From Escherichia coli (GTDB lineage: Bacteria > Pseudomonadota > Gammaproteobacteria > Enterobacterales > Enterobacteriaceae), in assembly GCF_003790525.1 (NCBI RefSeq), contig NZ_CP033635.1: 64,000 bases of DNA, one strand, 5' to 3'. Below, piece by piece: positions 20,476-20,715 of this stretch. Every line of letters begins with the position of its first letter. Position 1 is the stretch's first letter. A program made the position numbers and the translations under genes. The notes under the pieces were generated by a model, which saw only the letters and a list, made by a program, of their open reading frames with translations, ran no database searches and was not told the origin of the DNA.

Positions 20476-20715
20476 TTACATCTGGACGTCTAGGCGTCCG
20501 CACATCTTCTGGTATTTCCCCTTTACAGAGATCTACCTAACCTATGTACCCGTCTTCTTGGAAAAGCCTGTTCCAGCGCTTCGCGCTAAAAGATCAACAC
20601 CGCCCCCTTTCCCCCATAAACATTTAGGGGGTGGTAAATACATCCAGACATATAGACGTCTAAATATTTTTACCATTTTCAATCAGCCACCGGACACCTT
20701 TAAGCCCGGTACCAA

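What the first reader, a model, noticed from the sequence alone, without database searches (positions are those of the whole stretch)
20476..20715. Palindrome-rich non-coding stretch between the cII-position gene and the HNH gene
It contains GGACGTCTAGGCGTCC (near 20487), the perfect palindrome TAGACGTCTA (near 20660) and a CCCCC-ataaacattta-GGGGG inverted repeat (near 20610). This could be a replication origin or iteron region, a terminator structure, or a recognition site for the adjacent HNH endonuclease.
Basis: seen in the sequence. Interest (0 to 1): 0.25.

Follow-up and report, generated by a model that had tools for sequence, protein, structure and literature searches.

The report
Probable origin of helicase-primase prophages
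The palindromes are real and are part of a ~250-base non-coding element, folded on one strand and never annotated, that always sits between a small unknown protein and the helicase-primase genes of a widespread family of enterobacterial prophages (including outbreak-type Shiga-toxin phages) and is most likely their still-undefined replication origin.

Summary
All three palindromes exist at the stated places. They are pieces of a larger non-coding element (window 20458-20715, read on the minus strand) inside the early operon of a Fels-1/phi467/"Eru1"-type prophage. The element occurs in more than 100 loci from E. coli, Salmonella, Klebsiella, Yersinia, Serratia and other Enterobacterales. The gene order is always the same: 97-aa protein (p97), element, an optional nuclease gene, SF2 helicase, toprim primase.

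The element contains:
- a hairpin with an invariant 8-nt loop (UUAAAGGU) and strong stem covariation, including wobble pairs on the sense strand only;
- a variable AT-rich hairpin carrying lineage-specific repeats;
- a G5-N3-G5 tract;
- a GCGAAGC mini-hairpin with a compensatory change;
- a near-invariant GGTTAGGTAG followed by GATC, with GATC about five-fold enriched.

It is not specific to the HNH gene, it is not a terminator, and it matches no Rfam family or searchable paper. My best reading (about 0.45) is the module's origin or primosome-loading site, acting through the unwound or transcribed sense strand. The main rival (about 0.3) is a purely RNA leader, for example a p97-binding antitermination or processing site. 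Function is inferred, not shown.

The parts
20716..21009 (-). p97, the 'cII-position' gene. It encodes a 97-aa protein that always lies directly upstream of the element.
   Evidence: Synteny holds in every locus examined. The protein matches PHROG 852 (unknown function) and no Pfam or NCBIfam family above threshold. The AF2 model is a three-helix bundle (pLDDT 76) with an Arg-rich helix 3 and no PDB fold match.
20689..20710 (-). HP-A: a 7-bp hairpin, ACCGGGC-UUAAAGGU-GUCCGGU, with an invariant 8-nt loop. It begins 5 nt after the p97 stop codon.
   Evidence: In 40 distinct homologous hairpins, 91.4% of cells are paired and 6 of 7 pairs show compensatory changes; slid controls give 29-48%. In the p97-anchored set, 58 of 62 loci have one or two copies, with G.T 12 against A.C 3 in the inner pairs.
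20632..20675 (-). HP-B: an 18-bp imperfect hairpin in an AT-rich segment.
   Evidence: Inverted repeat I1 forms in the MFE structures. The segment is 69% AT. Lag-8 autocorrelation has z = 1.9 here and up to 4.5 in related 'type A' lineages. The sequence is lineage-specific.
20611..20631 (-). Its 3' arm is the first G-run of the G-tract.
   Evidence: Direct reading and the fold. It is shared with L020 and L045. Other lineages have different hairpins or long-range stems at this position.
20603..20615 (-). G-tract, GGGGGAAAGGGGG.
   Evidence: A G4+ N1-4 G4+ tract is present in 62 of 62 unique loci chosen only by p97 homology. The sense strand has a strong G excess over 20430-20730.
20592..20595 (.). 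First GATC (Dam) site.
   Evidence: GATC occurs 1.90 times per ~130-nt core against 0.39 expected, and 51 of 62 loci have at least two.
20575..20587 (-). HP-C: the mini-hairpin AGCGC-GAA-GCGCU, which contains GCGAAGC.
   Evidence: Compensatory change C-G (6 sequences) to U-A (11 sequences), with 97.6% of cells paired. d(GCGAAGC) is an extraordinarily stable DNA mini-hairpin found at phage and plasmid priming sites (PMC13037366).
20560..20574 (-). HP-D: GGAA-CAGGCUU-UUCC, invariant.
   Evidence: Paired in 100% of cells but never varies, so it gives no covariation evidence. The CUUUUCC arm can alternatively pair with the G-tract.
20530..20543 (-). Near-invariant motif AGGTTAGGTAGATC, with the second GATC at 20530-20533.
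   Evidence: It is single-copy in the window. GGTTAGGTAG (up to 2 mismatches) is present in 62 of 62 p97-anchored loci. GATC either overlaps it (40 loci) or follows a 5-nt insertion (22 loci). A 35-nt match is shared with about 98 Stx-phage records.
20477..20492 (-). Downstream box of two octamers, TAGACGTC|CAGATGTA.
   Evidence: It is a direct repeat of the upstream box (D1, 77%) and complementary to it (I3, 85%). Homology to HNH-less relatives ends at about 20511-20518.
19855..20457 (-). NUMOD4/HNH endonuclease gene. It occupies the optional slot between the element and the helicase.
   Evidence: Pfam NUMOD4 plus HNH_3. In relatives the slot holds a 122-aa PD-(D/E)XK-fold protein or nothing.
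17236..19864 (-). SF2 (RadD/XPB-like) helicase, 18206-19864, and Zn-ribbon/toprim primase, 17236-18204. These are the genes the element always accompanies.
   Evidence: Pfam, PHROG, NCBIfam and PDB sequence matches. They correspond to Eru1A and Eru1B of Llarena et al. 2021 (PMC8044961).

Best explanation
The stretch is the cis-acting non-coding element of a four-part replication module: p97, the element, an SF2 helicase and a toprim primase. This is the Fels-1/phi467/'Eru1' type. I propose that it is the module's origin, meaning the place where the duplex is opened and the phage helicase and primase are loaded.

Proposed steps (all inferred):
1. Early transcription from the cro promoter runs through p97 into the element.
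2. The AT-rich repeat segment and the G-rich non-template strand favour opening, or an R-loop.
3. The exposed sense strand folds into the loop hairpin HP-A (a candidate p97 binding site) and the very stable GCGAAGC mini-hairpin. The invariant GGTTAGGTAG stays single-stranded as the primase or helicase entry site.
4. The conserved GATC sites couple firing to Dam methylation state.

What is shown: conservation, strict synteny, strand-specific covariation, the repeats and the GATC excess.
What is inferred: every functional step.
For: 1. Linkage. In every lineage the element lies between p97 and the helicase-primase pair, while the immunity genes, the slot gene and the flanking boxes change. It is single-copy in the window.

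2. Unbiased conservation. Of 62 unique loci chosen only by p97 protein homology, 62 have the G-tract, 62 have GGTTAGGTAG (up to 2 mismatches) and 58 have HP-A. Motif identity is 0.95, against 0.55-0.58 at third codon positions of p97 and the helicase (that set was selected by motif).

3. DNA-level signals.
- GATC is always present. It is kept next to the motif even after a 5-nt insertion. It occurs 1.90 times against 0.39 expected, and 51 of 62 loci have at least two.
- The repeat segment is AT-rich (69%).
- Octamer periodicity is the top lag in all 'type A' lineages, z 1.9-4.5.

4. Single-strand hairpins of the kind found at priming sites.
- HP-A covaries strongly and tolerates G.T only on the sense strand.
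- HP-C is GCGAAGC in the window. Other lineages carry GCGGAGC or CCGTAAGG at that position. All fit the DNA mini-hairpin consensus reported at the G4, St-1 and RSF1010 ssiA priming sites.

5. The sense strand has a G-run and strong G skew.

6. No origin has been described for this module.
Against: - Box type (octamers, GTAC dyads or TGAAAT boxes) does not co-vary with p97, helicase, primase, cro or the DicA-like protein. No cognate iteron-binding initiator is therefore identified.
- Covarying hairpins with an invariant loop and G.U tolerance are the usual signature of an RNA element rather than of a dsDNA-phage origin.
- There are no DnaA boxes and no long unwinding element.
- The window has only three weak octamers (z = 1.9).
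- HP-C is absent in several lineages.
- The closing stem P1 is only 74% paired.
- Folding z-scores are similar on both strands across lineages.
- GAUC could instead be kept as the 3' arm of a weak GGUU/GAUC hairpin.
- There is no experimental evidence of any kind.
Confidence: 0.45

Rival explanations
1. The element is a purely RNA leader within the early transcript. The tandem HP-A hairpins would be bound by the Arg-rich helix of p97, or by a host factor, much as boxB is bound by N. The purpose would be to make RNA polymerase termination-resistant, to shield the 250-nt untranslated stretch from Rho, or to direct RNase III-type processing at HP-B. Any of these would control helicase and primase expression.
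For: - The element is transcribed in the sense orientation inside an operon.
- HP-A shows covariation with sense-only wobble pairs and an invariant loop, and is often tandemly duplicated.
- One HP-C variant has a GNRA tetraloop, GUAA.
- The sense strand folds to -87 kcal/mol, z = -4.5.
- The element is G-rich and C-poor, that is, poor in Rho-loading sequence.
- p97 helix 3 is Arg-rich (RKENRARHEANTRLR).
- Eru1 phages lack N (PMC8044961).
- HP-B is an 18-20 bp hairpin of variable sequence.
Against: - It is single-copy, with no second nut- or put-like site.
- No intrinsic terminator lies nearby.
- The distance to the helicase start varies from 131 to 780 nt, with whole genes inserted in between.
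- GATC enrichment, and retention of GATC after an insertion, are not expected for an RNA.
- Octamer arrays and dyad boxes look like DNA sites.
- GNA triloops closed by C-G are typical DNA mini-hairpins.
- There is no Rfam match.
- p97 has no similarity to N, and its Arg-rich helix is internal rather than N-terminal.
Confidence: 0.3
2. The palindromes are the recognition or homing site, or a regulatory site, of the adjacent NUMOD4/HNH endonuclease.
For: - TAGACGTC-type boxes flank the core on both sides in four HNH-bearing lineages: the window, L008, L020 and L045.
Homology to HNH-less relatives ends at about 20511-20518.
- The window core looks like a conversion mosaic of two lineages.
Against: - The element exists in about 100 loci without an HNH gene.
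- L109 has an HNH gene but GTAC-dyad boxes.
- L009, L029, L090 and L140 have octamer arrays but no HNH gene.
- A homing site should be intact in HNH-less alleles and disrupted here, so a site in this window would not be the cleavage target.
Confidence: 0.05
3. The stretch is an intrinsic terminator or attenuator that separates p97 from the replication genes.
For: Several stable hairpins lie directly after the p97 stop codon.
Against: No hairpin is followed by a U/T run on either strand. The scan finds 0 terminator-like sites against 2.0 expected. Downstream genes are in the same orientation with no promoter-like site in between.
Confidence: 0.03
4. The palindromes are chance features in a neutral spacer.
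For: Taken one at a time, short palindromes of 10-16 nt are common.
Against: None of 200 shuffles fold as well. The stretch is conserved from E. coli to Yersinia, well above synonymous-site identity. Covariation is strong.
Confidence: 0.01

Closest known systems
Single-strand initiation signals and priming hairpins: phage G4/St-1 complementary-strand origin, and RSF1010 ssiA/ssiB recognised by the RepB' primase
   Same: Both have strand-specific stable hairpins next to a conserved single-stranded stretch. Both use a mini-hairpin of the GCGNAGC/GCGNNAGC type: GCGAAGC here, GCGAAAGC in G4, CCGAAGG in ssiA (PMC13037366). A dedicated primase is encoded next door.
   Different: Those signals are 40-100 nt long, lie on ssDNA replicons or inside a defined oriV, and are experimentally proven. 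This element is about 250 nt, sits in a dsDNA temperate phage, has extra parts (loop hairpin, G-tract, repeat boxes, GATC) and shows no sequence similarity to them. Recognition by the primase is untested.
Iteron-type phage origins: lambda ori within gene O, and P4 ori/crr with octamer type I repeats bound by the alpha primase-helicase (from my own knowledge)
   Same: Both have short tandem or inverted repeats beside an AT-rich segment and sit within or next to the replication genes. The primase here is related to the N-terminal part of P4 alpha (Fels-1 annotation; Pfam Zn_Ribbon_Prim and Toprim_3).
   Different: The repeats differ between lineages without any matching change in a module protein. 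The most conserved parts are not repeats but single-copy motifs and covarying hairpins. The helicase is SF2 (RadD/XPB-like), not DnaB-type or SF3.
Transcript-primed (R-loop) origins: ColE1 RNA II, T4 oriF/oriG, and mitochondrial CSB II G-run (from my own knowledge)
   Same: Both place a G-run and strong G excess on the non-template strand of a transcribed non-coding region just upstream of where replication proteins act. In many lineages an A-run follows about 100 nt downstream.
   Different: No promoter lies inside the element; the nearest is the cro promoter about 0.7 kb upstream. G content after the G-run is only moderate. No RNase H or primer evidence exists.
Lambda N-nut (boxA/boxB) and HK022 put antitermination RNAs
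   Same: Both occupy a position in the early right operon after cro. Both have hairpins with an invariant loop and covarying stems. A small basic protein is encoded nearby. Eru1 phages lack N.
   Different: The loop is 8 nt (UUAAAGGU), not a 5-nt GNRA-like loop. The element is single-copy rather than an L/R pair. It lies 0.7 kb from the promoter. p97 is unrelated to N. Put is a 73-nt two-stem RNA (PMC9378689), whereas this is a 250-nt multi-part element.
Eru1 'EHEC phage replication unit' (Llarena et al. 2021, PMC8044961)
   Same: It is the same module. The helicase and primase are homologous to Eru1A (62-67% identity) and Eru1B (57%). The core motif, G-tract and a p97 homologue are present in TL-2011c and about 98 Stx-phage records.
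   Different: That paper names the genes only. It does not describe an origin, a non-coding element or p97, which is unannotated in TL-2011c.

Membership tests
Iteron-type theta origin (lambda ori, P4 ori) | Three or more direct repeats (iterons) of one short unit | tested here: inconclusive
   The window has three tandem octamers upstream and two downstream, with lag-8 z = 1.9. Related type A lineages have 5-7 units, z up to 4.5. Type B and type C lineages have dyads instead.
Iteron-type theta origin (lambda ori, P4 ori) | Adjacent AT-rich unwinding segment | tested here: inconclusive
   The 71 nt between HP-A and the G-tract are 69% AT, but the segment is short and overlaps the repeats.
Iteron-type theta origin (lambda ori, P4 ori) | Cognate initiator encoded nearby whose specificity co-varies with the repeats | tested here: not met
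   Window p97, helicase and the DicA-like protein are 95-100% identical to type B relatives (cro 100% to L001/L007), although the boxes differ. The helicase tail does not track box type.
Iteron-type theta origin (lambda ori, P4 ori) | Supports autonomous replication | not testable with these tools
   This needs cloning or marker-frequency data.
ssi / primase-recognition hairpin (G4 ori-c, RSF1010 ssiA/B) | Stable hairpins that form on one strand only | tested here: met
   HP-A: 91% paired, 6 of 7 pairs compensatory, G.T 12 against A.C 3. HP-C shows a compensatory change. P1 has a conserved G.U.
ssi / primase-recognition hairpin (G4 ori-c, RSF1010 ssiA/B) | Mini-hairpin GCGNAGC/GCGNNAGC at the priming site | tested here: met
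   GCGAAGC lies at 20578-20584. GCGGAGC and CCGTAAGG occur at the same position in other lineages, and the hairpin is absent in some classes.
ssi / primase-recognition hairpin (G4 ori-c, RSF1010 ssiA/B) | Directs primer synthesis by a specific primase | not testable with these tools
   This needs an in vitro priming assay.
R-loop / transcript-primed origin (ColE1, T4 oriF, mtDNA CSB II) | G-cluster and G excess on the non-template strand | tested here: met
   G5A3G5 in the window, and a G-tract in 62 of 62 relatives. GC skew is -0.09 to -0.50 on the plus strand over 20430-20730.
R-loop / transcript-primed origin (ColE1, T4 oriF, mtDNA CSB II) | Dedicated promoter just upstream | tested here: not met
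   No sigma-70-like site lies on the minus strand within the gap. Transcription from the cro promoter is inferred.
Lambda N-nut | boxB hairpin with a 5-nt GNRA-like loop, and boxA 8-9 nt upstream | tested here: not met
   The loop is 8 nt, UUAAAGGU. The upstream CGCTCCTGA only resembles boxA, and it is the end of the p97 ORF.
Lambda N-nut / HK022 put | Two copies, one in each early operon | tested here: not met
   The motif and the loop hairpin occur once in 64 kb. The other TTAAAGGT lies in coding sequence and forms no hairpin.
HNH homing-endonuclease target site | The feature depends on, or co-occurs with, the endonuclease gene | tested here: not met
   The element is present without an HNH gene in most loci. 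Box type and HNH presence are dissociated in L109, L009, L029, L090 and L140.
Intrinsic terminator | GC-rich hairpin followed by a U-run | tested here: not met
   0 sites in 19800-21500 against 2.0 expected.
Any Rfam 15 family | Covariance-model match | tested here: not met
   No hit at E <= 1 in the window region or in the element of L001, L004, L058 or L088.

The most novel reading that the evidence does not exclude
The element defines a new kind of phage origin. In this reading, an operon-internal, transcription-opened region works through a folded single strand: tandem invariant-loop hairpins bound by the small three-helix protein p97, a G-run, a DNA mini-hairpin and a GGTTAGGTAG-GATC entry site. 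It would load a RadD/XPB-like SF2 helicase together with a toprim primase, optionally assisted by a Bax1-like or HNH nuclease. This would be the unknown origin of the non-lambdoid 'Eru1' Shiga-toxin phages.

An alternative that is equally new: p97 plus HP-A is an undescribed protein-RNA antitermination pair that replaces N-nut in these phages.
Probability: 0.3. Interest if true: 0.8.

Novelty: new variant of a known kind. Interest (0 to 1): 0.6.

Why it matters
The helicase-primase ('Eru1') module drives replication of the Stx2a phages of the 2011 O104:H4 and 2006 O103:H25 outbreaks, where toxin output scales with phage replication. Its origin and its control elements have not been defined.

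This element gives a precise, testable candidate of about 250 nt, with named hairpins and motifs, shared by prophages of E. coli, Salmonella, Klebsiella and Yersinia. It also links a conserved protein to the module that is unannotated in TL-2011c (p97).

If it is an origin, it would be an unusual one, working through single-strand folds with an SF2 helicase. If it is an RNA, it would be a new structured RNA family with one of the cleanest covarying hairpins seen in a prophage early operon.

Tried and rejected
- Rfam on the window and on four relatives: nothing.
- Promoter and terminator scans: nothing in the gap on the transcribed strand.
- A small conserved ORF in the gap: rejected because of indels and stop codons.
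- A protein that co-varies with box type. I tested p97, the helicase (whole and C-terminal tail), primase, p285, cro and the DicA-like HTH protein. None tracks it. The nearest-neighbour association of the helicase (46 of 52) is explained by linkage and is contradicted by the window itself.
- p97 function: no qualifying Pfam hit, no NCBIfam, PDB-sequence or Foldseek hit.
- Strand asymmetry from folding z-scores across 23 lineages: not informative, with a mean of -2.55 against -2.48.
- A downstream hairpin (HP-E) and a long-range up-box/down-box helix. They are not homologous across lineages, or they are confounded by the palindromic nature of the boxes, so I do not claim them.
- RNAalifold on the core: only HP-C gains covariation support, and G-tract pairing with CUUUUCC is possible but unproven.
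- Plasmid collection: the only small 'plasmids' carrying the module are circular phage genomes, so they give no independent proof of origin function.
- Literature search by sequence strings and by 'Eru1': no description of the element.
- Local GC skew: it reflects the G-rich strand and is not a usable origin signal.

Full report
**Observation.**
- GGACGTCTAGGCGTCC at 20484-20499;
- TAGACGTCTA at 20653-20662;
- CCCCC-N11-GGGGG at 20611-20631.

The repeat finder adds six more inverted repeats. It also finds a 22-nt direct repeat flanking the centre of the gap, at 20477-98 and 20639-60. The 251-nt stretch folds far better than shuffled versions. As RNA the minus strand gives -87 kcal/mol (z = -4.5, 0 of 200 shuffles as good) and the plus strand -58 (z = -2.6). 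With DNA parameters z is -2.6 and -2.2. The stretch is non-coding: relatives differ by 1-, 2- and 4-nt indels, and most have stop codons in all frames. The HNH gene probably starts at ATG 20457, which has an SD and matches RefSeq's 603-nt (200-codon) annotation. The gap is therefore 20458-20715.

**Context.**
The genes here are on the minus strand and form the early operon of a prophage:
- LexA-like repressor, 21351-22118 (+);
- cro-like gene, 21022-21294 (-);
- a 97-aa protein I call p97, 20716-21009 (-);
- the gap;
- NUMOD4/HNH gene;
- SF2 helicase (RadD/XPB-like), 18206-19864;
- Zn-ribbon/toprim primase, 17236-18204.

Close relatives are phage phi467, Salmonella phage Fels-1, several Klebsiella phages and many E. 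coli prophages. They keep a gap of about 250 nt but carry a 122-aa gene where the window has the HNH gene. Homology to them breaks at about 20511-20518.

**A conserved core.**
Aligning the gaps on the minus strand shows an ultra-conserved core inside otherwise diverged sequence. Pattern searches with two different core strings, a genome-collection scan and a protein-anchored scan brought in more than 100 loci. They come from E. coli, Salmonella, Klebsiella, Yersinia, Serratia, Cedecea, Pseudocitrobacter, Buttiauxella and others.

In all of them the order is p97, element, [122-aa gene, or HNH gene, or nothing], helicase, primase. A 35-nt piece of the core is also found in about 98 Shiga-toxin phage records, including TL-2011c, the O104:H4 phage P13374 and many Stx2a phages. 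There it again lies upstream of hypothetical-helicase-primase, and a p97 homologue is present but unannotated. These are the 'Eru1' non-lambdoid replication units of Llarena et al. 2021. That paper and its follow-up name the genes but describe no origin or non-coding element, and note that the phages lack N, cII and cIII. Searches for the core strings in the paper library found nothing relevant, and Rfam has no match.

**Anatomy (minus strand, window coordinates).**
1. HP-A, 20710-20689. This is a 7-bp hairpin with the loop UUAAAGGU, starting 5 nt after the p97 stop codon.
   - In 40 distinct homologous hairpins, 91.4% of cells pair and 6 of 7 pairs show compensatory changes. Slid controls give 29-48%.
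   - In the set of 62 unique loci chosen only by p97 homology, 58 have one or two copies.
   - The inner pairs show 12 G.T against 3 A.C, so it is the sense strand that folds.
2. HP-B, 20675-20632. This is an 18-bp imperfect hairpin in a 69% AT segment.
   - This segment is lineage-specific. 'Type A' lineages have 3-7 octamers, with lag 8 the strongest autocorrelation in every one (z = 1.9 in the window, up to 4.5).
   - 'Type B' lineages have an 18-20-bp dyad, GTACTAG-N7-GTAC.
   - Stx-phage lineages have TGAAATnATTATC boxes.
   - A related box recurs downstream of the core: TAGACGTC|CAGATGTA at 20492-20477 in the window.
3. A G-tract is present in 62 of 62 unbiased loci. The sense strand is G-rich throughout.
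4. HP-C, 20587-20575, is AGCGC-GAA-GCGCU. It carries a clean compensatory change, C-G in 6 sequences and U-A in 11.
   - It contains GCGAAGC, the extraordinarily stable DNA mini-hairpin (Tm 76.5 C). A recent review places that hairpin type at the G4 and St-1 priming sites, in RSF1010 ssiA and in N4 promoters.
   - Other lineages have GCGGAGC or CCGTAAGG at this position, which also fit that consensus. Some lineages lack the hairpin.
5. HP-D, GGAA...UUCC, is invariant and so uninformative. A closing stem, P1, is 74% paired, shows four compensatory pairs and a conserved G.U, and is partly broken in the window. The window looks like a mosaic of two lineages.
6. AGGTTAGGTAGATC, 20543-20530. GGTTAGGTAG (up to 2 mismatches) is present in 62 of 62 unbiased loci. 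GATC either overlaps it (40 loci) or follows a 5-nt insertion (22 loci). GATC occurs 1.90 times per core against 0.39 expected, and 51 of 62 loci have at least two. These loci are related, so the counts are not independent.

Motif identity is 0.95, against 0.55-0.58 at third codon positions of p97 and the helicase. That set was selected by motif; the unbiased set supports the same conclusion.

**What it is not.**
- Not a terminator: no hairpin is followed by a T-run.
- Not a promoter by consensus.
- Not HNH-specific. Most loci have no HNH gene. L109 has an HNH gene with GTAC dyads. L009, L029, L090 and L140 have octamers without an HNH gene.
- The boxes also do not follow any nearby protein. 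The window's p97, cro, DicA-like protein and helicase are 95-100% identical to those of type B relatives, while its boxes are type A. The hypervariable helicase tail does not track box type either.
- The slot gene of the relatives (p122) has a PD-(D/E)XK nuclease fold (AF2 pLDDT 89.6). Its top matches are Bax1 (the nuclease partner of the XPB helicase), NucS and McrC. The slot therefore holds one of two unrelated nucleases, or nothing.
- p97 models as a three-helix bundle with an Arg-rich third helix and has no detectable relatives of known function.

**Interpretation.**
Two classes of signal coexist.
- Single-strand, sense-specific folding: HP-A, HP-C and the G.U pair in P1.
- DNA-type signals: retention and enrichment of GATC, AT-rich repeat arrays or dyads, and GNA-triloop mini-hairpins.

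Both are reconciled if the element acts when the duplex is opened or transcribed. It would then be an origin or primosome-loading site of the p97-helicase-primase module, whose sense strand (displaced DNA, the transcript, or both) folds. I put this at about 0.45. Every functional step is inferred.

The main rival, at about 0.3, is a purely RNA leader: a p97 or host-factor binding site for antitermination, Rho protection or processing. It explains HP-A best. It does not explain GATC, the octamers, the single copy or the variable distance to the helicase.

The HNH-site, terminator and chance readings are low. The remainder is 'some other function'.

**Limits.**
- There are no experimental data.
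- Many loci were found with patterns taken from the element itself, which is an ascertainment bias. This is mitigated by the p97-anchored set.
- The loci are phylogenetically related.
- Comparisons with P4, ColE1, CSB II and nut rest on my own knowledge, not on tests here.

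Noticed in passing
L058 (JQ011318.1, TL-2011c), minus strand about 2943-2650: TL-2011c and other Eru1 Stx2a phages carry an unannotated ORF between cro and the element. It is 53% identical to the window's 97-aa p97.
   Followed up: partly
L001 2076-2444 (phi467) and equivalents; window 19855-20457: The slot between the element and the helicase holds a 122-aa protein with a PD-(D/E)XK nuclease fold, or an HNH gene, or nothing. For the 122-aa protein the AF2 pLDDT is 89.6 and the Foldseek top hits are Bax1 (the XPB-helicase partner), NucS/EndoMS and McrC. Two unrelated nucleases therefore alternate next to an XPB/RadD-like helicase.
   Followed up: partly
window 20455-20475: The HNH ORF has two in-frame ATGs, at 20475 and 20457. 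Only the second has a Shine-Dalgarno sequence (GAGGTG), and it matches RefSeq's 603-nt (200-codon) annotation. The mechanical 206-aa ORF therefore overstates the gene.
   Followed up: yes
window 18206-18420 (helicase C-terminus): The last ~70 residues of the helicase are a hypervariable linker. Identity drops from about 100% to 60-75% between otherwise near-identical E. coli relatives.
   Followed up: partly
L088, L090, L111, L140, L159: about 40 nt before the helicase ATG: In loci without a slot gene, a conserved TTCYYTGGAAnAGTGAAWT precedes the helicase start. It resembles codons 10-16 of the 122-aa gene (CTCCTGGAAGAGCAATTC). It may be a remnant of that gene or a second cis site.
   Followed up: no
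L159 (NZ_LR890473.1) and about ten similar Klebsiella records: Records of 37-42 kb deposited as circular non-mobilizable 'plasmids' are episomal phage genomes that carry this same module. The helicase follows the element directly.
   Followed up: partly
window 20434-20462, plus strand: A sigma-70-like site (TTCACC-17-TAAAAT) at the HNH 5' end points into the element on the antisense strand. It lies inside the HNH cassette, so it is not conserved in relatives.
   Followed up: no
window 20544-20602 compared with L045, L020 and L001: The window's core is a mosaic. The left arm (TTGATCT) is the L045/L020 type and the right arm (GGGTACAT) is the E. coli type B type. This breaks part of the closing stem, as expected if flanking sequence was co-converted when the HNH cassette arrived.
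   Followed up: partly
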